A stretch of 47,589 nucleotides of DNA from a virus (lineage: Duplodnaviria > Heunggongvirae > Uroviricota > Caudoviricetes), in the IMG/VR virus record IMGVR_UViG_2706794673_000013, one strand, 5' to 3'. Shown here piece by piece: positions 11,759-41,790 of the stretch. Position numbers and translations under genes: made by a program. The stretch's first letter is position 1; each line of letters begins with the position of its first letter. The notes beneath the pieces are model-generated. The model had not been told where the DNA came from, did not search any database, and saw nothing but the letters and a program-made list of their open reading frames with translations.

Positions 11759-11957
11759 ACGTTACTAGATCAAAGAGCATTAGTTCATATGTAAATTGAC
11801 ATTTTTCTGGCACAGGGGAGAGCTAGCGTGGTTGTCCGCTTTGTGCCAATAGCGGACATTGCTGGCTCATGGTATGTTAGTTTAAGGAGGCAGGTTATGC
11901 CCTGTATTTCGCTGTGGTATAATAGTTGCGCAATTGATACAAGGGAGCGTTACATCG

Positions 11958-12919
11958 TGAAAATTGTTTTCGAGGTTAATGGAAAGAAAGTTCCACTAAA
12001 ATCTTTAAAATACATAAGCAAAAAAGATCAACTCGAAGTAATGAAAAACTGGTTCTTTGAAAACTTTGAAGATCCGGCAAATGCTTGTCCGTATGAAAGT
12101 AGAGAAGGTGGCTATGCTTACATATATGGCGGGCCGTATGATGCGAGCGAAGAACTACAATCCATCTTCGGTCAATATGTTAAATCTGAGTATATTGAGG
12201 AATTAGTAGATGAATTACAAACACAATGTTTTGACTGGTCTGGAAACTCAAATAATATAGATGATTGGTACGATGATGATATCTACGACGCTGTAACGTC
12301 TTCCGGTAATCCGTATTTAAAATTCATTGATAATATCGATAAAATAAAAAAACTTGCAAAAGATAAAACTGAACAACAGCAAAAAAACCACTTGCTTAGT
12401 TTGCTCTACACGAATGTTATTACAGCTTTGGAAACGCTTTATGTTGAGCTATTCATTAATTCTATAGAGAAAGATGATGTCTACATAGCCAATTGTATAG
12501 AAAAAGGTAAGACTGAATTTAAAGTAAGCAAAGATATTGCTGCGTTGCCTTTCAAGGGTGAACCCATCGAGAAAATTAGGGGAGAGCTAATCAGGTCAAT
12601 CAAGGAACACTTGATCAGTGCAAGCTGGCATAGCACTAAAAAGGTAATCGACCGCTATGAAGCTACATTCGATATAAAAGTACAAAAAGACTGTCCGATA
12701 GAAGCTATTGAATTGGCAACCCTCAATCGAAATCACTTAGTGCATCGTGGTGGAAAGGATAAAGAAGGGAACCTCGTAGTGATTACAGACCAGGATCTTG
12801 AAACGCTGATTGAAAATGCATCGAACCTGGCAATTATGCTCTACAACAGTTTAAATGTAGCAACGAATAAAACCACCATTTTGCAACCAGATGACAAACC
12901 GTTCATTCATGAATTTTAA
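11958..12919 (+). CDS. Hypothetical protein A of AT-rich cassette (candidate defence/abortive-infection protein)
   Basis: About 320 aa from GTG 11958 preceded by AAGGGAG (alternative ATG at about 12041); visibly AT-rich, K/N/I/D-rich codon usage unlike flanking phage genes; R-x4-H motif (RNHLVH) near C-terminus. Confidence 0.55.
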
Positions 12920-12934
12920 TAGCGCAGGTCATAC

Positions 12935-13936
12935 ATGGATATTCGCACACGAAAGACAAAATTTTTAGAGTCGTTAGATTCAACTGAAGTGATACGCAAA
13001 GCAGTAAGTCTCGCTATAGATTGCATTATTGATAATCATAATAGTAATGAAGATACCCCCTTAGTTATTACCAGCTATGATGATCTCTGTAGAATCCAGG
13101 TGCTAAATTATGTACAGGAGTTTTGCGAAGCTGCATTCCCTGATATGGATGAATATTACTTTAGTCCTAACATACTTCGCATCAACGGCAAGACTAGTGA
13201 AGAAGCTTGTATTAACTTAATTAAACTCTTAAGAAGTACAAAAGGCATGCTATTCTGGTCCGATGCCCCATCGTGGTTCGCTAGCCTCCCCGACGGATTA
13301 TTCCATGTTGTTAACATTGATCAAAAAATCGTTACTCGCGGCCTTAATAAGAAAAACTCTAAGCCGACAATAATCAATAAAGATTACAGTGTAGATACAC
13401 TACTATCAGAGCTATTTTTGAATGGCGCACACATGGAGCAACCCAACGTACACAACGTTTCTGAGGGAAACATGAAGTTCTATGATGAATGCCATGCTGG
13501 ATTAATCAGACCAATACCCGCTCCAATAGGCGCGTCATACGATGAAGAGATCACAATTAATTCTCCAGATTGGCAAAAGCTCGCGTGTGTAGCTTTACGC
13601 CGCTATCAGTCGAAGGAATGTCATGACGGAATGCAATGGGATACAACCGATCATGGTTGGACTGATGTAATCGCGTATCCATTCGTCGAAGAAATACAAT
13701 CAATGGATAATAGTGGTTATCGACAATGTTTAGTTGGGCTGGTCACAATAAACAATTCAAATGCAAATTCTCCGTACCTATCTACCGTTTGGATACATCC
13801 ATTTTATCGCAGGAGAGGGTTATTAAGTAAGTTATGGCCAAAATTACAAGAGTTATATGGAAGTAACTTCGAAATTGAGCGACCTAATGAAAATATGAAA
13901 GCATTTCTGAAAAGTGCGAAACACGCAGATTACTAA
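12935..13936 (+). CDS. Hypothetical protein B of AT-rich cassette (possible GNAT-like C-terminal domain)
   Basis: 333-aa ORF 15 nt downstream of protein A, same strand and same AT-rich composition; C-terminal segment CLVGLVTINN...VWIHPFYRRRGLLSKLW resembles the GNAT acetyl-CoA binding motif. Confidence 0.55.
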   Translation: MDIRTRKTKFLESLDSTEVIRKAVSLAIDCIIDNHNSNEDTPLVITSYDDLCRIQVLNYVQEFCEAAFPDMDEYYFSPNILRINGKTSEEACINLIKLLRSTKGMLFWSDAPSWFASLPDGLFHVVNIDQKIVTRGLNKKNSKPTIINKDYSVDTLLSELFLNGAHMEQPNVHNVSEGNMKFYDECHAGLIRPIPAPIGASYDEEITINSPDWQKLACVALRRYQSKECHDGMQWDTTDHGWTDVIAYPFVEEIQSMDNSGYRQCLVGLVTINNSNANSPYLSTVWIHPFYRRRGLLSKLWPKLQELYGSNFEIERPNENMKAFLKSAKHADY

Positions 13937-14895: not shown

Positions 14896-15720
14896 AACCA
14901 CCTCCTCCAAAACATGCATTAAAAATGCATCTTTTGGAGGGTTATGTCAAGCTGTTATGAAACACATAATTGATATGTTGATTAGAGGAGAAGATAGAAT
15001 AAATATGGTTGTTTTTCGTATAACTATTTGTTTTACTTTTAGTTTATGCATTCTGTGTGTTNNNNNNNNNNNNNNNNNNNNNNNNNNNNNNNNNNNNNNN
15101 NNNNNNNNNNNNNNNNNNNNNNNNNNNNNNNNNNNNNNNNNNNNNNNNNNNNNNNNNNNNNNNNNNNNNNNNNNNNNNNNNNNNNNNNNNNNNNNNNNNN
15201 NNNNNNNNNNNNNNNNNNNNNNNNNNNNNNNNNNNNNNNNNNNNNNNNNNNNNNNNNNNNNNNNNNNNNNNNNNNNNNNNNNNNNNNNNNNNNNNNNNNN
15301 NNNNNNNNNNNNNNNNNGAAATATGATTCCAGCAACTTATCATGTGGCTACTTTATAAAAATAATGCCCATATAAAACAACAAGCGAAAAGGATTACGGA
15401 TAAAAAAGGAGCGAGATGTGCGAACTTGTTATTTTCCATGTTTAACCACCTTAAATAATTGATGATGACGGGATGATNNNNNNNNNNNNNNNNNNNNNNN
15501 NNNNNNNNNNNNNNNNNNNNNNNNNNNNNNNNNNNNNNNNNNNNNNNNNNNNNNNNNNNNNNNNNNNNNNNNNNNNNNNNNNNNNNNNNNNNNNNNNNNN
15601 NNNNNNNNNNNNNNNNNNNNNNNNNNNNNNNNNNNNNNNNNNNNNNNNNNNNNNNNNNNNNNNNNNNNNNNNNNNNNNNNNNNNNNNNNNNNNNNNNNNN
15701 NNNNNNNNNNNNNNNNNNNN

Positions 15721-18193: not shown

Positions 18194-18622
18194 ATGGGTT
18201 TTCGTAGCGCATCAATTCTTACGTTGATTATTAGTGGGATTATTATCGGGTGCACTGATGCTGTATCGACAAATTATCATGACCGTACATCATATTACTC
18301 CGATAAAGCAATAGAGACACAGTATGTGAGTTCATCTGAACGTACTTCTGATGTTAGTGAGGATATCCGTCTGTATGCCCATCAAATCAAGAGCGCCATC
18401 GAAAAACAGTTCGGGGATGCGAGTAAGTATTCAGGAAAAGAGTGTACACTGAGAATGCATATGGCCCCGAATGGCCTTCTACTGGAGGTTAAAAGAGAAA
18501 GTGGAGACCTCGATTTATGTCGTGAAGCGATGAATGCGATAAAGAATGCTGATATACCTGCCCCCCCTTCGCCGGAAGTATATAAAGTATTTCAAAATGG
18601 GGTGCTGGATTTTAAACCCTGA
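18194..18622 (+). CDS. Lipoprotein with TolA C-terminal domain (domain III)-like region
   Basis: 142-aa ORF with signal peptide and lipobox (IIIGC); C-terminal 80 aa (IKSAIEKQFGDASKYSGKECTLRMHMAPNGLLLEV...PEVYKVFQNGVLDFKP) closely parallels the C-terminus of E. coli TolA as recalled; SD GAGGA upstream. Confidence 0.75.
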   Translation: MGFRSASILTLIISGIIIGCTDAVSTNYHDRTSYYSDKAIETQYVSSSERTSDVSEDIRLYAHQIKSAIEKQFGDASKYSGKECTLRMHMAPNGLLLEVKRESGDLDLCREAMNAIKNADIPAPPSPEVYKVFQNGVLDFKP

Positions 18623-18772: not shown

Positions 18773-19168
18773 GTGGGATTAAAGAAAATCGTTATGTTGA
18801 CTTTTTGGGTCGGTTTTGTTGCGGGATGCACACCTTTACACCCTTCAGATTGCCACAAAACTACTGCTACAGGTAGTTGCAGTTCAGGACGCTGGGATGA
18901 TCAGGATGAATGGGGGGCGCAAGCGCGGGGAATCAGAGCTGCAATTAATGCCAAACTTGATGAGCCGCATAACTGGAAAGGGAAAAAATGCAGGTTGCAT
19001 ATGGAATTCTCTCAGGATGGCACGGCGTTAAAAATATCTACCAGTAACGGTGATAAAGCCTATTGCGAAGCGATAAAGTCCGCAGCTCATAAAGCCAAAT
19101 TTCCGGCCTTCAACAATCCGGAAGTCTACAGAGATTTTCAGAAATCTGGCTTTGACATGCGAGGTTAG
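18773..19168 (+). CDS. Lipoprotein, paralogue with TolA-CTD-like fold
   Basis: 131-aa GTG-initiated ORF (SD GAGGAG), lipobox FVAGC; C-terminal region aligns with the upstream lipoprotein (KKCRLHMEFSQDGTALKIS...CEAIKSAAHKAKFPAFNNPEVYRDFQKSGFD). Confidence 0.65.
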   Translation: MGLKKIVMLTFWVGFVAGCTPLHPSDCHKTTATGSCSSGRWDDQDEWGAQARGIRAAINAKLDEPHNWKGKKCRLHMEFSQDGTALKISTSNGDKAYCEAIKSAAHKAKFPAFNNPEVYRDFQKSGFDMRG

Positions 19169-22188: not shown

Positions 22189-22325
22189 TATATGGCTGAT
22201 TTATAATTGTGAGTTTAATATTATGTTGACTCACTCATTGATCCAATACCTAACTTTACCAGCAACACCTCCGCCCCCAGTAGCACTGGCTGCTGGGGTG
22301 CGTTTTATTCATAAAGCAAGGCTGT

Positions 22326-23114
22326 ATGAGCGAGAAATTAAAGATAGTCTATCGCCCATTACAAGAATTGTCACCGTATGCGCACAACGCCAGGACGCAC
22401 AGTACTGAGCAGGTGGCACAACTGGTAGAAAGTATTAAGCAATTCGGCTGGACTAATCCGGTGCTGATTGACGAAAAGGGCGAAATTATTGCGGGTCACG
22501 GTCGTGTTATGGCGGCTGAAATGCTCAAAATGGATTCTGTTCCGGTCATTGTTCTGTCTGGCCTGACGGATGAGCAGAAAAAGGCGTACCGCCTGGCAGA
22601 TAATCGCCTGCCGATGAATGCTGGCTGGGATGAAGATCTGTTGCGGATGGAGCTGTCGGACCTAATCAATGCTGATTTTGATGTCTCCCTGACAGGCTTC
22701 ATCCCGGCAGAAATTGATGAACTGTTGACGGATGTTTTGCCCGGTACAGGAAATGAGGAGGAGCCGTATACGACGAAAATTGATACGCCTGTTTATGAGC
22801 CGTCAGGCGGTAAACCGGATATCAGTGAACTGTACGACGATACGAAAACTCAGGAGCTGATCAGCCGGATACGTTCGGCGTCCCTTGATCCTGATATTGA
22901 GAAATTCCTCCTGTGTGCAGCAGAACGTCACACGGTGTTTAATTTCAGCAGAATTGCGGACTATTACGCTCATGCCCCCGCTGAAATTCAGTGCCTTTTC
23001 GAGGAGTCGGCGCTGGTGATCATTGATTATCAGCAGGCTATTGAAAATGGATTTGTCCGAATGACGCAGCGCATGGTGGAGATCATGCATGGCGGGGAGG
23101 AGGAATATGCGTGA
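22326..23114 (+). CDS. ParB-like nuclease domain protein (YnaK-like, full length)
   Basis: 262-aa ORF with ParB/Srx N-terminal signature (KIVYRPLQELSPYAHNARTH...NPVLIDEKGEIIAGHGRVMAA). Confidence 0.7.
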   Translation: MSEKLKIVYRPLQELSPYAHNARTHSTEQVAQLVESIKQFGWTNPVLIDEKGEIIAGHGRVMAAEMLKMDSVPVIVLSGLTDEQKKAYRLADNRLPMNAGWDEDLLRMELSDLINADFDVSLTGFIPAEIDELLTDVLPGTGNEEEPYTTKIDTPVYEPSGGKPDISELYDDTKTQELISRIRSASLDPDIEKFLLCAAERHTVFNFSRIADYYAHAPAEIQCLFEESALVIIDYQQAIENGFVRMTQRMVEIMHGGEEEYA

Positions 23115-24039
23115 TGATTTTTGCGCCTTTATTCTGACTCACGGGCGACCGGACAAAGTTCTGACTTACCGGACGTTGCGTCGTGCTGGCTATACCGGGA
23201 AAATTTTTATCGTTGTTGATGATGAAGATAAGACACGGCATCAGTACATGGCTGAATTTGGTGAACAGGTGCTGGTATTTTCCAAAGCCGATATTGCTAG
23301 TCGTTTTGACGAAGCCGATAATTTTAGTGACCGCCGCTCAATTTTTTACGCCCGTAATGCCTGTTTCGACCAGGCAAAACTGGTCGGGTGTAAATACTTC
23401 ATTCAGCTCGATGATGATTATCACGAGTTCCAGTTTCGGGTGGATCGCAACTATGACCAGGCCTATTTCCCGATAAGGAAACTGGATGAGATCCTTTCTG
23501 AAATGCTTGCGTACTACGAATCAATACCTGCTCTTTCCATCGCTATGTCGCAGGGCGGGGATTTTCTTGGTGACAATGGCGGCCATGCTTCGTGGGTGAA
23601 ACGCAAGGCAATGAACAGCTTTATCTGTTCGGTTGATCGACCGTTCTCATTCATGGGGCGCATTAACGAGGATGTGAATACGTACACGAATCTCGGTCGC
23701 TGTGGTGAATTGTTTATGACGATCGGTGCTGTCCAGTTAGGGCAGAAACAGACGCAGAAAAACAGCGGCGGAATGACCGAGCTGTATCTGGATTCCGGAA
23801 CCTACGTTAAAAGTTTTTACTCCGTCATGTATGCGCCGTCGTGCGTAAAAATCTCACTTATGGGTGCCAGTCATAAACGCATTCACCATCAGGTCACCTG
23901 GAACAACGCTGCAGTAAAAATCCTTCACGAAAAATACAGGAAGAAGACACCCTGCATATCAATGGGGGTGACAAATGATTCCGTATTCGAAAGTCGAGTC
24001 TCTGGCAGCGTGCCGGATGACTGCACAACAAATCGCTGA
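23107..24039 (+). CDS. Hypothetical protein with DxD motifs (possible nucleotide-sugar transferase-like fold)
   Basis: 310-aa product from ATG 23107 (SD GGGGAGGAGG inside end of upstream gene); motifs FIVVDDEDK and FIQLDDDYHEF; family not recognised. Confidence 0.45.
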   Translation: MRDDFCAFILTHGRPDKVLTYRTLRRAGYTGKIFIVVDDEDKTRHQYMAEFGEQVLVFSKADIASRFDEADNFSDRRSIFYARNACFDQAKLVGCKYFIQLDDDYHEFQFRVDRNYDQAYFPIRKLDEILSEMLAYYESIPALSIAMSQGGDFLGDNGGHASWVKRKAMNSFICSVDRPFSFMGRINEDVNTYTNLGRCGELFMTIGAVQLGQKQTQKNSGGMTELYLDSGTYVKSFYSVMYAPSCVKISLMGASHKRIHHQVTWNNAAVKILHEKYRKKTPCISMGVTNDSVFESRVSGSVPDDCTTNR

Positions 24040-24226
24040 CGTTCTGGATGTTGATCTGAACCGACTGAAAGAAAATCGGGAAGCAATGACAGATTTTTAT
24101 GCGGCCATCCGTAAGGGCAGAGCGAAAGGTGAAGCCGAGTTACGAGCGGCATTGTTTAAGCTTGCCAGAAAAGGGGATGCCTTTGCTCTGCGCGAACTAC
24201 TCAGGGTGGATAAAAATCAGGACTAA
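24017..24226 (+). CDS. Small HTH-like protein upstream of terminase
   Basis: About 70 aa from internal ATG (MTAQQIADVLDVDLNRLKEN...); location and size suggest a DNA-binding packaging accessory protein. Confidence 0.4.
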   Translation: MTAQQIADVLDVDLNRLKENREAMTDFYAAIRKGRAKGEAELRAALFKLARKGDAFALRELLRVDKNQD

Positions 24227-24229
24227 CTG

Positions 24230-25324
24230 ATGAGCAGACCGGACTGGGGGGCGTTGCAGCAGGAGTATATTGCTGAATACACCCGCTCCGGTATATCTCC
24301 GGTGGCATGGTGTGAAGCAAGGGGACTGAATTACGCAACAGCCCGTCGTTACATCAAAAAAACTCCGAAAAATGCGCAGACAGAAATGTGCAAAACTGCG
24401 CAAAAAAGTGCGCAGAAAAAATCTGCGCAGACTGCACAAAAGCGGAACGAAAAATCTCAGGAAAAAAAGCCAGTATTCGATGCGGGCCTGAATGAGGGCG
24501 ACGCGGAGGAATTTTCGTTCTGTCCCGATGAATTCGGCATTTCTGACCAGCAGGCTAAGTTTGCGATGCTTGTTGCTCAGGGTAAAAAGCCGACAGAGGC
24601 GTACCGACTAGCCGGTTATGAGGGGCAAGGTGCGACAGCTAACAGCAACGCCAGTCGTATGCTTAGAAATGCCAGGGTTTTTCGCGCTATCAGCTACTTC
24701 CGCAATCAGTACCAGAAACGCTATACCGCAGACCTGGATTTACTAGTGAGTCAGTTGATGGCTATTGTCCTGGCCGACCCCAATCAGCTTGCACAATTTC
24801 GCCGTGTTAACTGCCGTTATTGCTGGGGCGAGAATCATCTCTACCAGTGGCGCGATATAGCAGAATTCGACAAGGCAGCGGCGCAGGCTTCCAGAGATGG
24901 CAAACCCGAACCGGAATATGGAGGCCTCGGCTTTGTTGATAACGCCATACCCAATCCGGACTGCCCGAAGTGCTGCGGTGAGGGAACGGGACAGCTTTAT
25001 ATGGCTGATACCACTCTGCTTGATGGGGATGCGCGGCAATTATATGCAGGGGCAAAATTCGGAAAATTCGGCGTTGAGATCCTGCTGGAGGATAAGGCTG
25101 CCGCCCGGCGTGAATTGTTGCGTTTGTTTTCTGCTGGCGGGGCTTTATGTGCAGATAAGCGGCTACGGGAACTGGAAATTGAACGGCGCAGAATGGAAAA
25201 CCAGAAGCTGCGCAAAGAGATCGAAACGGTGGAAGATAATGAACATCCCCAGCCTGTGGCGATCAATATTAATGTGGTTGATGCCAGAGTAAGGAGTGAT
25301 GAAGATGATCTCTCCGACGCTTAA
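24230..25324 (+). CDS. Putative terminase small subunit / DNA-packaging protein
   Basis: 364-aa ORF immediately upstream of terminase large subunit; N-terminal HTH-like segment, Lys/Ala/Gln-rich repeat region, and Cys pairs (CRYC ... CPKCC). Confidence 0.5.
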   Translation: MSRPDWGALQQEYIAEYTRSGISPVAWCEARGLNYATARRYIKKTPKNAQTEMCKTAQKSAQKKSAQTAQKRNEKSQEKKPVFDAGLNEGDAEEFSFCPDEFGISDQQAKFAMLVAQGKKPTEAYRLAGYEGQGATANSNASRMLRNARVFRAISYFRNQYQKRYTADLDLLVSQLMAIVLADPNQLAQFRRVNCRYCWGENHLYQWRDIAEFDKAAAQASRDGKPEPEYGGLGFVDNAIPNPDCPKCCGEGTGQLYMADTTLLDGDARQLYAGAKFGKFGVEILLEDKAAARRELLRLFSAGGALCADKRLRELEIERRRMENQKLRKEIETVEDNEHPQPVAININVVDARVRSDEDDLSDA

Positions 25325-26606
25325 TGTGCCTCAGGCGCGATTTCTTTCAATGCCCCATAAATTTAAAGCCTATATTGCTGGTTTTGGCTCGGGCAAAACA
25401 TGGGTTGGGTGTGGCGGCATATGCAAGGGGATTTGGGAGCATCCAGGTATAAATCAGGGATATTTTGCGCCAACGTATCCCCAAATTCGCGATATTTTTT
25501 ACCCTACAGTGGAAGAAGTTGCTGCTGACTGGGGATTGAACGTAAAAATTAATGAGGGAAATAAAGAGGTTCACTTTTATTACGGACGCCAGTATCGGGG
25601 AACCACTATCTGCAGATCGATGGAGAAGCCACAAACGATCGTCGGTTTCAAAATTGGTAATGCGTTGGTGGATGAACTGGACATTTTGCCGAAGGAAAAA
25701 GCCAGAACGGCGTGGCGCAAGATAATTGCACGTATGCGTTATAAGATTGATGGACTTCGCAACGGTATTGACGTTACAACCACGCCGGAAGGATTCAAAT
25801 TTGTCTACGAGCAGTTTGTTAAAGCCGTGCGTGAAAAAACAGAGCTGGCCTCACTGTATGGTCTGGTGCAGGCATCTACTTTCGATAATGAAAAGAACCT
25901 GCCAGCAGATTACATTCCTTCGCTTCTTGAATCATACCCTCCAGAGCTGATTAAAGCCTATCTTCGAGGACAGTTTACTAACCTGACAAGTGGTACTGTT
26001 TACCATCAGTTTGACCGGAAACTGAATAATTGCGAAGAAGTGGAGCAGCCAGGGGAGCCGATTTATATTGGGATGGATTTTAACGTTGGAAAGATGGCGG
26101 GAATCGTCCATGTGCTGCGTTTGGGGCTTCCATGTGCGGTAACTGAAATCATCAATGCCTACGATACGCCGGATATGATCCGCATCATTAAAGAACGCTT
26201 CTGGCTGTATGATGGGAATGATTACCGGAAAGTGAGGGAAATTTATATTTATCCAGATGCTTCCGGGGATTCCAGAAAATCAAGTAACGCAAGTACGACG
26301 GATATAGCCCAGCTTAAGCAGGCTGGTTTTAACGTTGTGGTGAACAGCTCGAACCCGCCAGTAAAAGATCGCGTTAACTCAATGAATGCAATGTTCTGCA
26401 ATGCCAATGGTGAGCGTCGCTATAAAGTTAATGTGAAGCGTTGCCCGTTATATGCCGAATCTCTGGAGCAACAGGTCTGGGATGAGAAGGGGGAGCCTGA
26501 TAAAAAATCTGGCAATGATCACCCGAATGATGCCGGAGGTTATTTCATCGTTAAGCAATTCCCTATTGTCAAACCGACCGGAAGAGTCACATCACTTCGG
26601 ATTTAA
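25296..26606 (+). CDS. Terminase large subunit
   Basis: 436-aa ORF with Walker A-like motif (AGFGSGKT) near N-terminus and C-terminal nuclease-like region; followed by portal gene. Confidence 0.85.
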   Translation: MMKMISPTLNVPQARFLSMPHKFKAYIAGFGSGKTWVGCGGICKGIWEHPGINQGYFAPTYPQIRDIFYPTVEEVAADWGLNVKINEGNKEVHFYYGRQYRGTTICRSMEKPQTIVGFKIGNALVDELDILPKEKARTAWRKIIARMRYKIDGLRNGIDVTTTPEGFKFVYEQFVKAVREKTELASLYGLVQASTFDNEKNLPADYIPSLLESYPPELIKAYLRGQFTNLTSGTVYHQFDRKLNNCEEVEQPGEPIYIGMDFNVGKMAGIVHVLRLGLPCAVTEIINAYDTPDMIRIIKERFWLYDGNDYRKVREIYIYPDASGDSRKSSNASTTDIAQLKQAGFNVVVNSSNPPVKDRVNSMNAMFCNANGERRYKVNVKRCPLYAESLEQQVWDEKGEPDKKSGNDHPNDAGGYFIVKQFPIVKPTGRVTSLRI

Positions 26607-29215: not shown

Positions 29216-29977
29216 ATGAAACTGAAAACGGTCGAGATTAACGGAAAACAATACGCAGAAATTGATACTGCTGGCCTGCCAGTTTATGTGCACGACGATG
29301 GTAAAGAAATTGGCTTCGATGCACCGCTGGCGACAAAAAAAATTACAGAGCTTAATGGCGAGGCAAAAAATCATCGCCTGGCTAAAGAAGCTGCAGAGGA
29401 NNNNNNNNNNNNNNNNNNNNNNNNNNNNNNNNNNNNNNNNNNNNNNNNNNNNNNNNNNNNNNNNNNNNNNNNNNNNNNNNNNNNNNNNNNNNNNNNNNNN
29501 NNNNNNNNNNNNNNNNNNNNNNNNNNNNNNNNNNNNNNNNNNNNNNNNNNNNNNNNNNNNNNNNNNNNNNNNNNNNNNNNNNNNNNNNNNNNNNNNNNNN
29601 NNNNNNNNNNNNNNNNNNNNNNNNNNNNNNNNNNNNNNNNNNNNNNNNNNATCCCGGCAGATTTATTACAAGCCCGCTTCGGGCAGGCATTCAAAGTGGA
29701 AGAAGGGAGGATCGTTGCTTATGACGCTTCCGGCAACAAAATTTATTCCCGCGCGAAGCCTGGCGAACTGGCGCAGTTTGATGAGGCGCTGGAGTTCCTT
29801 GTCGAAAATTACCCTCAGAAAGACTACATCCTGAAAGCCAGTGGCAACAATGGCGGCGGCTCCCGTCCGACACAGCATGATATTGGTCAGAAAACGATGA
29901 AACGCTCTGCTTTTGATGCACTGGATGTTGCAGGTAAGCAAAACGCATTGAAAGACGGTATCACAATCGTTGATTAA
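29216..29977 (+). CDS. Putative head scaffolding protein (interrupted by N run 29401-29650)
   Basis: ORF from ATG 29216 (MKLKTVEINGKQYAEID...) located between head morphogenesis and capsid genes; middle part masked so frame continuity is unverified. Confidence 0.45.
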   Translation: MKLKTVEINGKQYAEIDTAGLPVYVHDDGKEIGFDAPLATKKITELNGEAKNHRLAKEAAEXXXXXXXXXXXXXXXXXXXXXXXXXXXXXXXXXXXXXXXXXXXXXXXXXXXXXXXXXXXXXXXXXXXXXXXXXXXXXXXXXXXXIPADLLQARFGQAFKVEEGRIVAYDASGNKIYSRAKPGELAQFDEALEFLVENYPQKDYILKASGNNGGGSRPTQHDIGQKTMKRSAFDALDVAGKQNALKDGITIVD

Positions 29978-32597: not shown

Positions 32598-33088
32598 AGT
32601 TTACTGAAATCAGAAATACGGTTATTTCCAGAATGACGGCACAGACGATTATTGATGGAAAAGACGTATTGTATCCGAACGGGCCAACGTTCGATCCTTC
32701 CGGTAAGTTAATCTGGGCGCGGTTAAGTANNNNNNNNNNNNNNNNNNNNNNNNNNNNNNNNNNNNNNNNNNNNNNNNNNNNNNNNNNNNNNNNNNNNNNN
32801 NNNNNNNNNNNNNNNNNNNNNNNNNNNNNNNNNNNNNNNNNNNNNNNNNNNNNNNNNNNNNNNNNNNNNNNNNNNNNNNNNNNNNNNNNNNNNNNNNNNN
32901 NNNNNNNNNNNNNNNNNNNNNNNNNNNNNNNNNNNNNNNNNNNNNNNNNNNNNNNNNNNNNNNNNNNNNNNNNNNNNNNNNNNNNNNNNNNNNNNNNNNN
33001 NNNNNNNNNNNNNNNNNNNNNNNNNNNNNNNNNNNNNNNNNNNNNNNNNNNNNNNNNATCGCGCGCTCTAGCGCAATTAATGACATAG
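32594..33088 (+). CDS. Putative tail terminator/tail component (interrupted by N run 32730-33057)
   Basis: ORF beginning MKFTEIRNTVISRMTAQTIIDGKDVLYPNGPTFDPSGKLIWARLS then masked; boundaries uncertain. Confidence 0.3.
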   Translation: MKFTEIRNTVISRMTAQTIIDGKDVLYPNGPTFDPSGKLIWARLSXXXXXXXXXXXXXXXXXXXXXXXXXXXXXXXXXXXXXXXXXXXXXXXXXXXXXXXXXXXXXXXXXXXXXXXXXXXXXXXXXXXXXXXXXXXXXXXXXXXXXXXXXXXXXXSRALAQLMT

Positions 33089-33097
33089 GAGGCTCCT

Positions 33098-33526
33098 GTG
33101 AGTTCAGGTGCAAAGGTTATCTCGGCATTTATCCGGGAGACGGTTGCAGGCACTACGCCAGCAAGTGGTGACTGGAGTTTATTAAAACGCACAAGCTGGG
33201 GAGTAAAACCCNNNNNNNNNNNNNNNNNNNNNNNNNNNNNNNNNNNNNNNNNNNNNNNNNNNNNNNNNNNNNNNNNNNNNNNNNNNNNNNNNNNNNNNNN
33301 NNNNNNNNNNNNNNNNNNNNNNNNNNNNNNNNNNNNNNNNNNNNNNNNNNNNNNNNNNNNNNNNNNNNNNNNNNNNNNNNNNNNNNNNNNNNNNNNNNNN
33401 NNNNNNNNNNNNNNNNNNNNNNNNNNNNNNNNNNNNNNNNNNNNNNNNNNNNNNNNNNNNNNNNNNNNNNNNNNNNNNNNNNNNNNNNGGAGCGCAGGTT
33501 GGCTCATGGAAAATGCAGATCCCTAA
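33098..33526 (+). CDS. Putative tail structural protein (interrupted by N run 33212-33488)
   Basis: ORF beginning MSSGAKVISAFIRETVAGTTPASGDWSLLKRTSWGVKP then masked; boundaries uncertain. Confidence 0.3.
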   Translation: MSSGAKVISAFIRETVAGTTPASGDWSLLKRTSWGVKPXXXXXXXXXXXXXXXXXXXXXXXXXXXXXXXXXXXXXXXXXXXXXXXXXXXXXXXXXXXXXXXXXXXXXXXXXXXXXXXXXXXXXXXXXXXXXSAGWLMENADP

Positions 33527-35077: not shown

Positions 35078-38000
35078 ATGGCAGAGCAAACCTCGCGTCT
35101 CGCAATAATTATTGATAGCACTGGAGCGAAAAATAATGCTGACAATCTGACCTCCTCATTAGTCAAAATGACGCAGGCTGGGGAAACTGCTGCAAATAGC
35201 GCAGGGAAAGTGACTAAGGCAACAGAAGATGAGAAGAACGCGCTCGCAAAATTAAAAGCAGCTATTGATCCAGTTGGTGCCGCAATTGATACTGTCGGTC
35301 GACGCTATTCTGAATTAAAGAAATTTTTCGATAAAGGGCTTATTGATAAAGAAGAATATGAATTTCTTGTCCGTAAACTTAATGAAACCACAGAGGAATT
35401 GAGCGGGGTTGCGCAAGCGCAGAGAGAAGCCGAGAAGGCCGGAAAACTTGCTGCCGCCCAGCAGGAAGCGCAGGCTCAGGCCTTTCAAAGAATGCTGGAC
35501 AAGATCGACCCTCTGGCTGCGGCGCTAAGAAATCTTGAACAACAGCATGATGAACTTAATGCTGCGTTTGCATCCGGGAAAATAAATGGTTCTCAGTTTG
35601 AGAATTATAGCCGAAAAATACAGGAAACACGGCGAGAGCTTACCGGAGAGGCTCAGGCAGAGCGAGAAGCAGCAAAAGCGCATGATGAACAGGTTGTTGC
35701 TTTGCAACGTCTGATTGCTCAACTTGATCCTGTCGGAACTGCTTTTAATCGTCTGGTAGAACAACAGAAACAGCTCAATGAAGCAAAAGCTAAGGGGATG
35801 CTTTCTCCTGAAATGTATGAGGAGCTTTCTGGAAAACTTCGTGCTATGCGGAGTGAGCTTGAGGTTACTCAATCACAATTAAGCAAAACCGGAATGTCGG
35901 CAAAACAAACGGCTTTTGCTATGCGCATGTTGCCTGTACAAATGACGGATATTGTTGTTGGGTTGTCCACTGGTCAGTCGCCATTTATGGTGTTAATGCA
36001 GCAGGGCGGCCAGCTAAAAGATATGTTCGGTGGGATTGGCCCGGCGATCAAAGGTGTAGGTTCTTATGTGCTGGGATTAATTAATCCTTTTACCCTGGCC
36101 GCAGCAGCCGTTGGGGTCTTAGGACTGGCTTACTATAAAGGCTCTCAGGAGCAGGACGAATTTAATAAATCTCTTATTCTTACCGGAAATCAGTTGGGGA
36201 CAACCAGCGGGCAATTGGGCGATATAGCTCAACGTGCCGGGAATGCGGCTGATTCGACAACTGGTGCTGCGGCGGCAGTATTAAATCAGCTTGTGCGTTC
36301 GGGAAAGGTAGCGAGCAGTTCGCTGGAGCAAGTGACGACAGCGATAGTAAAAACGAGCGAAGTAACAGGAATATCAACCGAACAACTGGTTAATGACTTC
36401 AATGAAATTGCAAAGGATCCTGTCAGTGCCATATCAAAACTTAATGATCAGTACCATTTTCTGACACTTGCGACTTATAACCAGATTAAGGCGCTACAGG
36501 ATGAAGGGAACCAGCAGGAGGCCGCCCGCATTGCGACAGAAGAATACTCATCCTCAATGATCCAGCGCACCAACCAGATTAAAGAAAATCTTGGTTATCT
36601 TGAGACTGCATGGAAAGCTGTCGCAGACTCCGCAAAATGGGCATGGGATTCCATGCTGGATATTGGCCGTGAGGCCTCCCTTGATCAAAAAATCTNNNNN
36701 NNNNNNNNNNNNNNNNNNNNNNNNNNNNNNNNNNNNNNNNNNNNNNNNNNNNNNNNNNNNNNNNNNNNNNNNNNNNNNNNNNNNNNNNNNNNNNNNNNNN
36801 NNNNNNNNNNNNNNNNNNNNNNNNNNNNNNNNNNNNNNNNNNNNNNNNNNNNNNNNNNNNNNNNNNNNNNNNNNNNNNNNNNNNNNNNNNNNNNNNNNNN
36901 NNNNNNNNNNNNNNNNNNNNNNNNNNNNNNNNNNNNNNNNNNNNNCCGGGAGCAGCAGAGAGCTAGTGAACTTGCAAAACTGGAAAAGCTAAAGAATCAG
37001 TATTCAAAGGAAGAATATAATAATCTTATCGCTCAAATAAATGAGCGTTATAAAGATCCAAAGCAACCAAAGGCGAAAGGTTATTCTGATGATGCAGCCC
37101 AACGAATGATTGATCATCTGAATCAACAGAATGCGTTACTAAGTTCACAAGCTGAGTTGACCGTTAAATTAAGTTCCTCTGAACAGGAACTGGTTAAGTG
37201 GCGTCAGCGGATTGCCGACCTAGAGTCACGACCATCATCGAAATTAACCCAGGATCAGAAATCGCTTCTCTTACACCGGGAAGAAATAACCACGTTGATG
37301 GAGAAAAATGTTGCGATTGAAAAAAATAACAGGCTAATCAAGGAATCCGCCGAAATAACAGCATGGCGTGATTCATTGCAGGCTTCGATTGATAATCGTC
37401 AGCAGGGGTATGATATTCAGATTGCTGGTTATGGGGTTGGCGATAAAAATCAGCAACGCCAGCAGGAATTACTGCGGATTGAACATGGATATAACAATCA
37501 GCGTCTGCAACTTGAACGTGACTATGCAGATAAATCCCGTGGAATGTCAGATCATGTTTTTCAAGAGAAAATGCAGGCTCTGAATGATGCTCTGGAACGG
37601 GAAAAAGAAATTGTCAGACAGAAAAACGAGCAGCTCGATATTCAGGCAGGAGACTGGGTTAGTGGTGCCTCCCAGGGATTCAATAACTGGCTGGATGACA
37701 CTAAGGATATCAGTGAGCAGATAAAATCAACCACGACTCAGATGTTTGATGGGATGACCGATGCGCTGGGTGATTTTGTCACGACAGGCAAGGCAAATTT
37801 TCGTTCTTTCGCTACTTCCGTGATTTCGGATCTTAGTCGAATAGCATTAAAGGCTTCAATTACTGGGATTTTCGACAGCATTAGTAACAGTTCTTCTGGG
37901 GGGATTTTAGGAACTATCGGGAGTGCTATTAGTAAATTTATTCCGAATGCAAAGGGCGGTGTTTATGAGTCTCCGTCATTGAGCACGTATTCGAACGGTA

Positions 38001-39227: not shown

Positions 39228-39495
39228 NNNNNNNNNNNNNNNNNNNNNNNNNNNNNNNNNNNNNNNNNNNNNNNNNNNNNNNNNNNNNNNNNNNNNNNNN
39301 NNNNNNNNNNNNNNNNNNNNNNNNNNNNNNNNNNNNNNNNNNNNNNNNNNNNNNNNNNNNNNNNNNNNNNNNNNNNNNNNNNNNNNNNNNNNNNNNNNNN
39401 NNNNNNNNNNNNNNNNNNNNNNNNNNNNNNNNNNNNNNNNNNNNNNNNNNNNNNNNNNNNNNNNNNNNNNNNNNNNNNNNNNNNNNNNNNNNNNN

Positions 39496-40753: not shown

Positions 40754-41790
40754 ATGACACAGACAGAATCAGCGATTCTGGCGCACGCCCGGCGATGTGC
40801 GCCAGCGGAGTCGTGCGGCTTCGTGGTGAGAACACCGGAGGGGGAAAGATATTTTCCCTGCGTGAATATTTCCGGTGAGCCGGAGGAGTATTTCCGGATG
40901 GCTCCGGAGGACTGGCTGCAGGCAGAGATGCAGGGTGAGATTGTGGCGCTGGTCCACAGCCACCCCGGTGGTCTGCCCTGGCTGAGTGAGGCCGACCGGC
41001 GGCTGCAGGTGCAGAGTGATTTGCCGTGGTGGCTGGTCTGCCGGGGGGCGATTCACAAGTTCCGCTGTGTGCCACATCTTACCGGGCGGCGCTTTGAGCA
41101 CGGGGTGACGGACTGTTACACGCTGTTCCGGGATGCTTACCATCTGGCGGGGATTGAGATGCCGGATTTTCATCGTGAGGATGACTGGTGGCGTCACGGT
41201 CANNNNNNNNNNNNNNNNNNNNNNNNNNNNNNNNNNNNNNNNNNNNNNNNNNNNNNNNNNNNNNNNNNNNNNNNNNNNNNNNNNNNNNNNNNNNNNNNNN
41301 NNNNNNNNNNNNNNNNNNNNNNNNNNNNNNNNNNNNNNNNNNNNNNNNNNNNNNNNNNNNNNNNNNNNNNNNNNNNNNNNNNNNNNNNNNNNNNNNNNNN
41401 NNNNNNNNNNNNNNNNNNNNNNNNNNNNNNNNNNNNNNNNNNNNNNNNNNNNTGCCAGATTTTCATCGTGAGGACGACTGGTGGCGTAATGGTCAGAATC
41501 TCTATCTGGATAATCTGGAGGCTACAGGGCTGTATCAGGTGCCGTTGTCAACGGCGCAGCCGGGCGATGTGCTGCTGTGCTGTTTTGGTTCATCGGTGCC
41601 GAATCATGCCGCCATTTACTGTGGTGACGGCGAGCTGCTGCACCATATTCCTGAACAACTGAGCAAACGAGAGAGGTATACCGACAAATGGCAGCGACGC
41701 ACACACTCCCTCTGGCGTCACCGGGCATGGCACGCATCTGCCTTTACGGGGATTTGCAGCGATTTGGCCGCCGCATCGACCTTCGTGTGA
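40754..41790 (+). CDS. K: Tail assembly protein K (lambda-like; interrupted by N run 41203-41452 with flanking duplicate sequence)
   Basis: MTQTESAILAHARRCAPAESCGFVV... matches lambda gpK; the peptide PDFHREDDWWR(H/N)G is encoded on both sides of the N run, indicating a duplicated or unresolved join. Confidence 0.75.

What the first reader, a model, noticed from the sequence alone, without database searches (positions are those of the whole stretch)
22326..24039. ParB-like nuclease-domain protein followed by a DxD-motif protein between trkG and the terminase genes
The ParB/Srx-like protein is full length (262 aa) and is translationally coupled to a 310-aa protein with two acidic DxD-like motifs (VVDDEDK, LDDDYHEF) of the kind used by metal-dependent nucleotide-sugar or nucleotidyl transferases. 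I could not assign it to a known family. A ParB-like nuclease paired with a putative transferase just upstream of packaging genes could be a DNA-modification, anti-restriction or packaging-accessory module.
Basis: partly seen in the sequence, partly recalled or inferred. Interest (0 to 1): 0.5.

Follow-up and report, generated by a model that had tools for sequence, protein, structure and literature searches.

The report
ParB-like partner plus DNA-type glycosyltransferase cassette
Two overlapping genes just upstream of the DNA-packaging genes of an E. coli Rac-type prophage encode a ParB-like protein and a glycosyltransferase of the family phages use to put sugars on DNA; the pair is conserved in viruses of many bacterial phyla and of archaea, yet no enzyme that would make the usual sugar acceptor is present, so its target is unknown.

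Summary
A 262-aa ParB/Srx-fold protein (22326-23114) overlaps by 8 nt a 310-aa protein (23107-24039), between trkG and the terminase genes of a Rac-type lambdoid prophage.

It matches Pfam PF20691, TET-associated glycosyltransferase (TAGT; PGAP name "GREB1-related"), at E 4e-34.

New here:
- In 90 of 91 non-redundant related loci, a YnaK-type gene lies directly upstream of this TAGT subfamily. The loci span Proteobacteria, Bacteroidota, Firmicutes, CPR bacteria and a halovirus.
- The constant partner is an unannotated acidic C-terminal domain of about 115 aa.
- The ParB N-domain is the type found fused to phage DNA methyltransferases.
- The cassette usually sits just before terminases of at least five families.
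- No TET/JBP dioxygenase or thymidylate-synthase homologue recurs near it, and none was found in this prophage.

Best reading (about 0.45): a late-expressed, two-component glycosyltransferase aimed at DNA, in which the ParB-like subunit docks or activates the enzyme, as shown for ParB-dependent phage thymine dioxygenases. The acceptor is unknown. Protein glycosylation is the main rival.

This is a new variant of a known kind, of moderate interest.

The parts
22275..22298 (+). Terminator-like hairpin (CCCCAGTAGCACTGGCTGCTGGGG followed by a T-rich tail) closing the trkG moron, 28 nt before the ParB-like gene
   Evidence: Consensus scan only and direct reading of the sequence. Function not shown.
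22326..23114 (+). ynaK-type gene for a 262-aa ParB-like protein: a ParB/Srx-fold N-domain followed by a conserved acidic C-domain
   Evidence: Pfam ParB_N E 8.7e-7 and phrog_620 E 1.7e-90. PGAP product name 'ParB/Srx family N-terminal domain-containing protein'. pI 4.5, net charge -24.
22326..22730 (+). ParB/Srx-fold N-domain (aa 1-135). Motifs: HNARTH (22383-22400), GWTNPV (22446-22463), IIAGHGR (22485-22505, in place of the canonical GERRxRA) and YRLADN (22587-22604)
22743..23111 (+). YnaK C-terminal domain (aa about 140-262), acidic and predicted helical, with no Pfam family. It contains the linear motif YTxKIxxPxYEP (22767-22805) and the blocks AAERHTVFNF, IADYYAHAP and FEESALVIIDY
   Evidence: It is the element most constantly found next to this TAGT subfamily. 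A profile built from it hits 161 ORFs, against 139 for the N-domain. It also occurs as a stand-alone ORF or fused to other N-termini. No Pfam or PDB sequence relative. Family median pI 4.76. AF2 confidence is low.
23107..24039 (+). 310-aa GT-A glycosyltransferase of the TAGT / GREB1-related family (PF20691). The start overlaps the ParB stop by 8 nt and is preceded by a GGAGGAGG Shine-Dalgarno sequence
23137..23892 (+). Conserved catalytic-type motifs of the glycosyltransferase: THGR (R14), VVDDEDK (D38, D41), FDEADNF, YARN, LDDDY (D102-104), SQGGD, RKAMN, NEDVNTY (E188, D189) and RIHH (H260, H261)
   Evidence: Invariant or at least 90% conserved in alignments A2 and A4, with coordinates. They fit the R...DDD...EDY/F pattern reported for phage DNA GT-A enzymes (bioRxiv 10.1101/2023.12.21.572611).
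24017..24226 (+). 69-aa helix-turn-helix protein that overlaps the GT stop by 23 nt. It resembles a small-terminase N-terminal piece and begins the packaging module
   Evidence: PGAP CDS on identical DNA. The longer reading 23975-24226 matches phrog_309, terminase small subunit, at E 8e-23.
24230..26606 (+). Terminase small (24230-25324) and large (25296-26606) subunit genes, the conserved downstream neighbours of the cassette
   Evidence: Pfam Terminase_2, Terminase_6N and Terminase_6C. In related loci the large terminase belongs to at least five different families.

Best explanation
The two genes form a self-contained, two-subunit glycosyltransferase module. It is expressed with the late (packaging) genes and most likely acts on phage DNA after replication and before or during packaging. 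The 310-aa protein is the catalytic subunit: a basic, metal-dependent GT-A enzyme that would use a UDP- or other NDP-sugar. The 262-aa YnaK-type protein is its obligate partner. Its acidic C-domain would bind or activate the enzyme. Its ParB/Srx N-domain, the type otherwise fused to phage DNA methyltransferases, would act as an NTP-gated dimerising module that holds the enzyme on double-stranded DNA. This would parallel the ParB-like activator that phage thymine dioxygenases need on dsDNA. The expected pay-off is protection of progeny DNA from restriction or other defences in the next host. Shown here: family and fold of both proteins, conserved catalytic motifs, obligate pairing, the position next to terminase or replication genes, and the lack of a recurrent TET/ThyA-type partner. 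Inferred: the physical complex, NTP binding, DNA as the target, the chemical acceptor and the biological benefit.
For: (1) PF20691 membership is well above threshold, the fold is GT-A, and the catalytic motifs are conserved. Members of the family add sugars to modified DNA bases: T2/T6 beta-glucosyl-HMC-alpha-GT, the TET-linked phage GT-A enzymes, and JGT (PMC13216743; bioRxiv 10.1101/2023.12.21.572611).
(2) In 90 of 91 non-redundant loci with upstream sequence, a YnaK-type ORF lies directly upstream on the same strand, usually overlapping. In 77 of them the match spans both YnaK domains. Annotated examples are halovirus HHTV-2 gp21/gp22 and Lactobacillus phage phi jlb1 024/025.
(3) The ParB N-domain scores far better against the N-termini of DNA methyltransferases (PADLOC MTase_II E 1.5e-38; phrog_498 E 6e-51) than against partition ParB (TIGR00180 38 bits, cut-off 58). 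It occurs in 498 phage records, many of them annotated as DNA or adenine methyltransferase.
(4) A ParB-like protein with a nucleotide-binding domain and a C-terminal domain but no DNA-binding domain is required by phage 5mYOX176 specifically on dsDNA (PMC13229309).
(5) Large terminases of at least five families follow the cassette (Terminase_6N in 24, Terminase_3 in 14, GpA in 5, TerL_ATPase in 4, T7-type in 3). In variants that carry only the C-domain, the cassette sits among DNA polymerase A, primase-helicase and helicase genes. Across these viruses, with hosts from E. coli to Haloarcula, Veillonella, Bacteroides and CPR bacteria, the only obvious common substrate is dsDNA.
(6) The enzyme family is basic (median pI 8.56) and the partner is acidic.
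(7) Some relatives carry a second TAGT, or fused or adjacent SAM-methyltransferase, sulfotransferase or sugar-nucleotide genes, as DNA-hypermodification clusters do.
Against: No enzyme able to make 5-hydroxymethyl-pyrimidine was found. None appears among the 52 PGAP features of the matching prophage, which covers most of the window, or in ten unannotated ORFs of the window scanned with Pfam. Among 447 neighbouring ORFs in up to 78 loci, no TET/JBP or thymidylate-synthase family reached the listed families: it was found in at most one ORF of each of the three sets scanned. No glycosylation of unmodified DNA bases is known. A TAGT-family member, GREB1, glycosylates a protein (PMC7968844). YnaK is strongly acidic and has no recognisable DNA-binding domain. 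Its GERRxR box reads AGHGR, so CTP-clamp behaviour is unproven. The authors of the GT-A survey judged glycosyltransferases without a neighbouring base-modification enzyme 'less likely' to act on DNA (bioRxiv 10.1101/2023.12.21.572611). No modified DNA has been reported, as far as I know, for the cultured phages that carry the cassette. No complex prediction could be run.
Confidence: 0.45

Rival explanations
1. The enzyme is a protein O-glycosyltransferase. It would glycosylate a phage protein, possibly YnaK itself at the invariant Tyr/Thr of the disordered YTxKIxxPxYEP motif, or a packaging or virion protein. Its role would lie in assembly, stability or immune evasion, not in DNA modification.
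For: GREB1, a TAGT-family enzyme, O-GlcNAcylates Thr/Ser of ER-alpha (PMC7968844). No hydroxymethyl-base source is present. A nearly invariant linear motif rich in Tyr, Thr and Pro lies in a predicted disordered linker of the obligate partner. The cassette abuts the head and packaging genes in most loci. Glycan-tailoring fusions exist.
Against: The partner carries an NTP-binding ParB N-domain shared with DNA methyltransferases. Terminase, portal and capsid families differ among the carriers, so no structural protein is a common target. In large Vibrio phages and several metagenomic loci the cassette sits in the replication module, away from structural genes. Self-glycosylation of YnaK is pure conjecture.
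Confidence: 0.2
2. The module is a counter-defence or host-manipulation enzyme acting on a small molecule or host component, such as a nucleotide second messenger, NAD-derived signal, RNA or host defence protein. The ParB-fold domain would bind the nucleotide ligand.
Against: No PADLOC hit except the methyltransferase-type ParB N-domain. Placement in the late operon, directly before the terminase, is conserved across unrelated phages. Variants lacking the ParB N-domain keep the C-domain and the GT, so the nucleotide-binding domain is not the core of the chemistry. Sequence conservation of 44-60% across phyla and into an archaeal virus argues against a host-specific target.
Confidence: 0.15
3. 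The pair is a packaging accessory with no transferase role. The ParB-like protein would help the terminase recognise or organise concatemeric DNA, and the GT-like protein would be structural or regulatory.
For: Position immediately upstream of TerS/TerL. Aravind and colleagues proposed that phage ParB proteins direct machinery to DNA during packaging (as cited in PMC8256090).
Against: All GT-A catalytic-type residues are invariant or nearly so across phyla, which is not expected of a non-enzymatic protein. The cassette goes with five different terminase families, and in some phages with replication genes instead. K-12 Rac lost the region, but that prophage is defective anyway.
Confidence: 0.08

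Closest known systems
T2/T6 beta-glucosyl-HMC-alpha-glucosyltransferase (the phage TAGT of T-even phages; PF20691)
   Same: Same Pfam family and GT-A fold. Same PHROG (phrog_842, E 8e-104), which is why RefSeq phage records name the homologues 'beta-glucosyl-HMC-alpha-glucosyltransferase' (PMC13216743).
   Different: It is a distant subfamily. tblastn at E 1e-3 finds no Tequatrovirus, and the T4-like Aeromonas phage 65 protein is only 22% identical. T-even enzymes extend a glucose on 5-hmC that was made before replication and glucosylated by alpha-GT. Here there is no hmC pathway and no alpha- or beta-GT, and there is an obligate ParB-like partner. NAR 2026 counts 288 of 753 phage genomes with such 'solitary' TAGTs and leaves their function undefined.
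TET/JBP (5mYOX)-linked phage DNA hypermodification clusters, including ParB-dependent thymine dioxygenases
   Same: A GT-A glycosyltransferase together with a ParB-like protein that has an N-terminal NTP-binding fold and a C-terminal domain but no DNA-binding domain, often near terminase genes (PMC8256090; PMC13229309; bioRxiv 10.1101/2023.12.21.572611). A functional precedent exists: the ParB-like protein activates the DNA-modifying enzyme on dsDNA.
   Different: No 5mYOX and no C5-methyltransferase in this prophage or recurrently in related loci. Here the ParB-like protein is paired with the glycosyltransferase itself. Homology of the YnaK C-domain to the C-terminal domain of 5mYOX-associated ParBs could not be tested, because no sequences were available.
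ParB_N-DNA methyltransferase fusions of phages and prophages (PADLOC MTase_II PDLC03229; phrog_498; CDD ParB_N_like_MT)
   Same: The ParB N-domain is of this type (E 1.5e-38 and 6e-51).
   Different: In those proteins the effector is a fused SAM-dependent DNA methyltransferase. Here the N-domain is followed by a different, unannotated C-domain, and the effector is a separate, translationally coupled glycosyltransferase.
Base-J glucosyltransferase (JGT) and animal GREB1
   Same: Members or relatives of the TAGT clade of Fringe-like GT-A enzymes, with the same catalytic motif pattern (PMC7968844; bioRxiv 10.1101/2023.12.21.572611).
   Different: JGT needs 5-hmU made by JBP. GREB1 is a 1949-aa protein O-GlcNAc transferase. 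Neither has a ParB-like partner.
Chromosome and plasmid partition ParB / Spo0J / KorB CTPase clamps
   Different: No ParA and no recognisable HTH DNA-binding domain. Box II reads AGHGR instead of GERRxRA. The score is below the TIGR00180 cut-off. The protein is very acidic.

Membership tests
TAGT / GREB1-related glycosyltransferases (Pfam PF20691) | Profile match above the curated threshold over the whole domain | tested here: met
   118.8 bits against a cut-off of 27.5, E 4.1e-34, residues 14-228 on profile positions 4-205 of 205. All listed homologues carry PF20691.
TAGT / GREB1-related glycosyltransferases (Pfam PF20691) | GT-A (Rossmann-like, nucleotide-diphospho-sugar transferase) fold | tested here: met
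TAGT / GREB1-related glycosyltransferases (Pfam PF20691) | Conserved catalytic pattern R ... DDD ... E-D-(Y/F) of phage DNA GT-A enzymes | tested here: met
   R14, D102-D103-D104-Y105 and N187-E188-D189 are invariant or at least 90% conserved. Assignment to metal, donor or base roles is by analogy only.
TAGT / GREB1-related glycosyltransferases (Pfam PF20691) | Genomic association with a TET/JBP dioxygenase or a hydroxymethyl-pyrimidine pathway, the association that gave the family its name | tested here: not met
   None among the 52 PGAP features of the matching prophage or in ten extra ORFs of the window. PF12851 and thymidylate-synthase families are absent from the listed families of 150 downstream, 149 near-upstream and 148 farther-upstream ORFs of related loci. 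Given what those lists show, that means at most one ORF in each set.
TAGT / GREB1-related glycosyltransferases (Pfam PF20691) | Transfer of a sugar to a DNA base | not testable with these tools
   Needs biochemistry or LC-MS of virion DNA.
ParB/Srx N-terminal domain superfamily (PF02195) | Profile match and fold | tested here: met
Partition-type ParB CTPase clamp (TIGR00180; ParABS) | Equivalog- or domain-level profile score, GERRxRA box II, HTH DNA-binding domain, ParA partner and parS site | tested here: not met
   TIGR00180 scores 38.1 bits against a cut-off of 58.45. Box II reads IIAGHGR. No Pfam domain beyond residue about 95. No ParA among the annotated prophage genes. parS was not searched for.
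Partition-type ParB CTPase clamp (TIGR00180; ParABS) | CTP (or other NTP) binding and hydrolysis | not testable with these tools
   R60 and N93 are invariant, but the box II Glu and first Arg are replaced. In the related 5mYOX system, mutating such residues did not abolish function (PMC13229309).
ParB_N-type module of phage DNA-modifying enzymes (ParB_N-methyltransferase fusions) | N-domain more similar to methyltransferase-fused ParB_N than to partition ParB | tested here: met
   PADLOC MTase_II E 1.5e-38 (residues 10-144) and phrog_498 E 6e-51, against Pfam ParB_N E 8.7e-7. Many of the 498 phage hits are annotated as methyltransferases.
ParB_N-type module of phage DNA-modifying enzymes (ParB_N-methyltransferase fusions) | Covalent fusion to a DNA methyltransferase domain | tested here: not met
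   The C-terminal 120 residues have no methyltransferase or other Pfam match. The effector is the separate GT.
ParB-dependent 5mYOX systems (PMC13229309) | A ParB-like activator (nucleotide-binding plus C-terminal domain, no DNA-binding domain) encoded next to a 5mYOX dioxygenase that depends on it | tested here: not met
   The architecture of the ParB-like protein is analogous, but no 5mYOX was found. Dependence of the GT on YnaK is untested.
Known anti-phage defence systems (PADLOC-DB v2) | Match of either protein to a defence-system model | tested here: not met
   The only hit is the ParB_N part of the MTase_II model. The GT and the 69-aa protein have no hit.

The most novel reading that the evidence does not exclude
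The YnaK-TAGT pair may install a sugar on DNA that carries no hydroxymethyl-pyrimidine. The acceptor could be a canonical base (through an exocyclic N or O), or DNA termini or backbone positions created during replication or packaging. That would be a DNA modification chemistry not yet described, spread among temperate phages of most bacterial phyla and some archaeal viruses, and present in about one in six complete E. coli genomes.
Probability: 0.2. Interest if true: 0.9.

Novelty: new variant of a known kind. Interest (0 to 1): 0.55.

Why it matters
Phage DNA glycosylation is understood only where a hydroxymethylated base supplies the acceptor, as in T-even phages, TET/JBP-linked clusters and base J. 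Recent surveys note that most phage GT-A/TAGT genes lack such a partner and leave their role open (PMC13216743; bioRxiv 10.1101/2023.12.21.572611).

This window provides a genetically tractable example of that orphan class. The cassette sits in an E. coli prophage and is present at 80% coverage or more in 867 of 5,426 complete genomes. Related phage records (vB_EcoS series) are available.

The census here narrows the problem to a minimal two-gene unit: the TAGT plus the YnaK C-domain, usually with a methyltransferase-type ParB N-domain. It also shows that the unit travels with DNA packaging or replication genes across domains of life. If the target is DNA, this would be a new modification and a second case of a ParB-fold protein acting as a cofactor of a DNA-modifying enzyme. 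If the target is protein, it would be a widespread phage protein-glycosylation system. Either outcome would also correct current database names such as 'partition protein', 'beta-glucosyl-HMC-alpha-glucosyltransferase' and the pseudogene ynaK.

Tried and rejected
- **ydaY as a GT remnant.** I first assumed from memory that K-12 ydaY is what remains of the glycosyltransferase. PGAP places ydaY after the tail-tube gene, so this was wrong. In K-12 only the 5' part of ynaK survives.
- **ParB-TAGT fusion.** I looked for a Rosetta-stone fusion among the 150 best 50%-identity representatives. The long proteins turned out to be TAGT fused to a SAM-methyltransferase, a sulfotransferase or a second TAGT, or carried N-terminal extensions with no Pfam match. 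None contained ParB.
- **PDB sequence searches.** The GT has no hit at E 1 or below. The YnaK C-domain profile gave only spurious matches to designed armadillo repeats and other helical proteins.
- **NCBIfam.** No model matches the GT.
- **PADLOC.** No defence-system assignment.
- **TET/JBP or ThyA in neighbours.** Not among the listed families in three Pfam scans of neighbouring ORFs. Only the top 25 families per scan are shown, so a single occurrence per set cannot be excluded. Divergent 5mYOX proteins without a Pfam match exist (PMC13229309).
- **Unavailable resources.** The afdb50 fold library was not available. Iyer et al. 2013 (PMC3763556) is not held, so its statements on TAGT and ParB are cited only through other papers. 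No supplementary sequences of 5mYOX-associated ParBs were available, so I could not test whether their C-terminal domain is homologous to the YnaK C-domain.
- **Microbacterium phage Metamorphoo.** Its gp84/gp85 (ParB_N plus 'glycosyltransferase' plus UDP-glucose dehydrogenase) showed no significant profile similarity to TAGT or to the YnaK C-domain. It is a parallel, not a member.
- **Literature.** Searches for ynaK, GREB1-related, HHTV-2 and ParB plus glycosyltransferase plus terminase found no experimental study of this cassette.
- **Complex prediction.** No multimer structure prediction was possible.
Full report
**What is there.** The window is a Rac-type lambdoid prophage of E. coli. It carries recET, kilR and sieB, a Q-like antiterminator, a lysis cassette, the trkG moron, and then head and tail genes. 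The finding covers two + strand ORFs.

ORF A (22326-23114, 262 aa) matches Pfam ParB_N (E 8.7e-7) and phrog_620 (E 1.7e-90). PGAP calls it ynaK, 'ParB/Srx family N-terminal domain-containing protein'.

ORF B is 310 aa from the ATG at 23107, the start PGAP uses. That ATG follows GGAGGAGG and overlaps the ParB stop codon by 8 nt. The next gene (24017-24226, a 69-aa HTH protein resembling a small-terminase piece) overlaps the end of ORF B by 23 nt. It is followed by TerS, TerL and the portal gene. A terminator-like hairpin (22275-22298) closes trkG 28 nt before ORF A. The cassette therefore reads as the first genes of the packaging operon, presumably transcribed by Q-modified polymerase; that last step is an inference.

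The same 2.3 kb occurs at 80% coverage or more in 867 of 5,426 complete E. coli genomes. It also occurs in ten phage records.

**Family of the 310-aa protein.** It is not an orphan. It matches Pfam PF20691, 'TET-associated glycosyltransferase' (TAGT), at E 4e-34, and phrog_842 at E 8e-104. PGAP and UniRef name it 'GREB1-related protein'.

VVDDEDK contains D38 and D41, and LDDDY contains D102-D104 and Y105. Also conserved are R14, FDEADNF, YARN, NED (187-189) and RIHH (258-261). This fits the R...DDD...EDY/F pattern reported for phage DNA GT-A enzymes and JGT (bioRxiv 10.1101/2023.12.21.572611).

Within PF20691 it belongs to a separate subfamily. tblastn does not reach the T2/T6 enzymes, and a T4-like Aeromonas phage protein is only 22% identical.

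Residues of about 140-262 form a conserved, acidic, predicted helical domain with no Pfam or PDB relative. It begins with a nearly invariant linear motif, Y-T-x-K-I-x-x-P-x-Y-E-P, in a predicted disordered linker. Blocks such as AA-x-RH-x-VF-x-F, IA-x-YYAH and ME-x-SALVIID follow.

**Comparative genomics.** The GT has more than 8,000 relatives in the 90%-clustered collection and 1,323 representatives at the 50% level. Scans of IMG/VR and of one genome per species returned 160 loci, which with earlier look-ups gave 103 non-redundant ones. Their hosts include Enterobacteria, Desulfovibrionaceae, Bacteroidales, Veillonella, Clostridia, Lactobacillaceae, Verrucomicrobia, Chlorobi, Acidobacteria, Planctomycetes, CPR bacteria and an archaeal MAG. 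Identity to the query remains 44-60%.

In 90 of the 91 loci with at least 700 nt upstream, a YnaK-type ORF lies immediately upstream on the same strand. In 77 of them the match covers both YnaK domains. Deposited annotations agree for Lactobacillus phage phi jlb1 (ParB, GT, TerS, TerL, portal) and for the archaeal halovirus HHTV-2 (gp21 ParB, gp22 GT, 11-nt overlap).

The C-domain is the more constant partner. It is found in 161 ORFs, against 139 for the N-domain. It occurs as a stand-alone ORF of about 135 aa, or behind unrelated N-termini, in at least 13 loci. Those loci include 191-196-kb Vibrio phages. In several of them the cassette lies among DNA polymerase A, primase-helicase or helicase genes.

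Downstream, within three ORFs, 53 loci show large terminases of at least five families: Terminase_6N in 24, Terminase_3 in 14, GpA in 5, TerL_ATPase in 4 and T7-type in 3. Upstream neighbours are heterogeneous.

No TET/JBP or thymidylate-synthase family appears among the listed families in any of the three neighbour scans. None is present in the PGAP annotation of this prophage or in ten further ORFs of the window.

Some relatives add a second TAGT. Others carry fused or adjacent SAM-methyltransferase, sulfotransferase, epimerase, NDP-sugar or UDP-sugar genes.

**Literature.** TAGT in T2/T6 adds the second glucose to glucosyl-hmC. NAR 2026 reports 288 of 753 phage genomes with 'solitary' TAGTs of undefined function (PMC13216743). 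The NEB survey found GT-A genes next to ParB and terminase genes. It considered the roughly 65% without a 5mYOX or ThyS neighbour less obviously DNA-directed (bioRxiv 10.1101/2023.12.21.572611). A ParB-like protein with nucleotide-binding and C-terminal domains but no DNA-binding domain was shown to be required by a phage thymine dioxygenase on dsDNA. In the structure predictions of that study the enzyme occupies the place of the ParB DNA-binding domain (PMC13229309). Orphan ParB-CTPase folds, including methyltransferase fusions, are enriched in prophages (PMC12704722). GREB1, a TAGT-family enzyme, glycosylates a protein (PMC7968844). I found no experimental work on this cassette.

**Interpretation.** The best-supported model is a two-subunit glycosyltransferase directed at DNA. 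The basic GT (family median pI 8.6) would be bound or activated by the acidic YnaK C-domain (median pI 4.8). The methyltransferase-type ParB N-domain would supply NTP-gated dimerisation or retention on DNA. The module would act on replicated phage DNA before packaging.

The strongest arguments are four:
- the pedigree of the enzyme family;
- a partner module shared with DNA methyltransferases;
- the functional precedent of ParB-dependent 5mYOX;
- the fact that dsDNA is the only obvious common substrate of viruses with different terminases, capsids and hosts.

The main weakness is chemical. No hydroxymethylated acceptor can be made by any recognised gene. So the acceptor would be new (a canonical base or DNA ends), or the target would not be DNA at all. 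Protein glycosylation, possibly of the invariant Tyr/Thr motif of YnaK itself, is the chief rival. A small-molecule or counter-defence role and a non-catalytic packaging role are less likely.

**Verdict.** The family is known and already annotated, so this is not a new kind of protein. The stand-alone YnaK-TAGT cassette, with its unannotated obligate C-domain and no acceptor-generating enzyme, is a distinct and uncharacterised variant of phage glycosylation modules. It is found in a convenient model organism.

Noticed in passing
window 22326-23114; L001 20327-20584: On DNA identical to the window, PGAP annotates ynaK as an 86-codon pseudogene ('incomplete; missing C-terminus'), although the 262-codon ORF is intact. 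The gene model seems to be copied from the truncated K-12 Rac remnant. Other databases call the pair 'chromosome (plasmid) partitioning protein' and 'beta-glucosyl-HMC-alpha-glucosyltransferase', names that nothing here supports.
   Followed up: partly
window 11828-12919 and 12935-13936 (+): Two adjacent low-GC (0.37-0.40) genes of 363 and 333 aa with no family assignment. The only hits are weak and below threshold: HEPN/RES N-terminal domain 1 and GNAT. They may be a moron or a defence or toxin pair. The second is frameshifted in strain EC2.
   Followed up: partly
window 18194-18622 and 18773-19168 (+): Two prophage genes encoding TolA C-terminal-domain proteins just upstream of the lysis cassette (Pfam TolA E 2e-23 for the first; PGAP annotates both as TolA-like). 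They could be decoys against Tol-dependent colicins or filamentous phages.
   Followed up: no
window 15062-15317, 15478-15720, 29401-29650, 32730-33057, 33212-33488, 36696-36945, 39228-39495, 41203-41452, 42433-42689, 43172-43421, 43579-43828, 43912-44269, 44437-44686: Thirteen runs of N (243-358 nt each, 3,487 nt in all) mask parts of the window. They cause the apparent GC dips in the composition profile and split several tail genes. None touches the finding.
   Followed up: yes
window 23975-24226 / 24017-24226 and 24230-25324: The small terminase seems to be split. A 69-83-aa HTH protein (phrog_309, TerS-like, E 8e-23) comes immediately before a 364-aa Terminase_2 protein. The same two-gene arrangement (about 85 aa, then about 340-360 aa) recurs in related enterobacterial loci (L036-L048).
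   Followed up: partly
L171 4435-6631 (Microbacterium phage Metamorphoo gp84-gp86): Another ParB_N protein overlaps a 246-aa annotated glycosyltransferase (no Pfam match), which is followed by a UDP-glucose dehydrogenase. It shows no detectable homology to TAGT or to the YnaK C-domain. ParB_N plus glycosyltransferase pairings may therefore have arisen more than once. Pseudomonas phage SM1 (L172) has two adjacent ParB_N genes, one fused to a Methyltransf_23 domain.
   Followed up: partly
P0248, P0252, P0290, P0266, P0268 (relatives of the GT): Some TAGT relatives are fused to a C-terminal class-I SAM methyltransferase, to a sulfotransferase (PF03567) or to a second TAGT. This hints at methylated, sulfated or di-saccharide products in those viruses.
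   Followed up: partly
E. coli K-12 ynaK (literature): In an overexpression screen, the truncated K-12 ynaK (the ParB N-domain fragment) raised MICs of six unrelated antibiotics (PMC12924614). The effect is unexplained and may reflect toxicity or slow growth.
   Followed up: no
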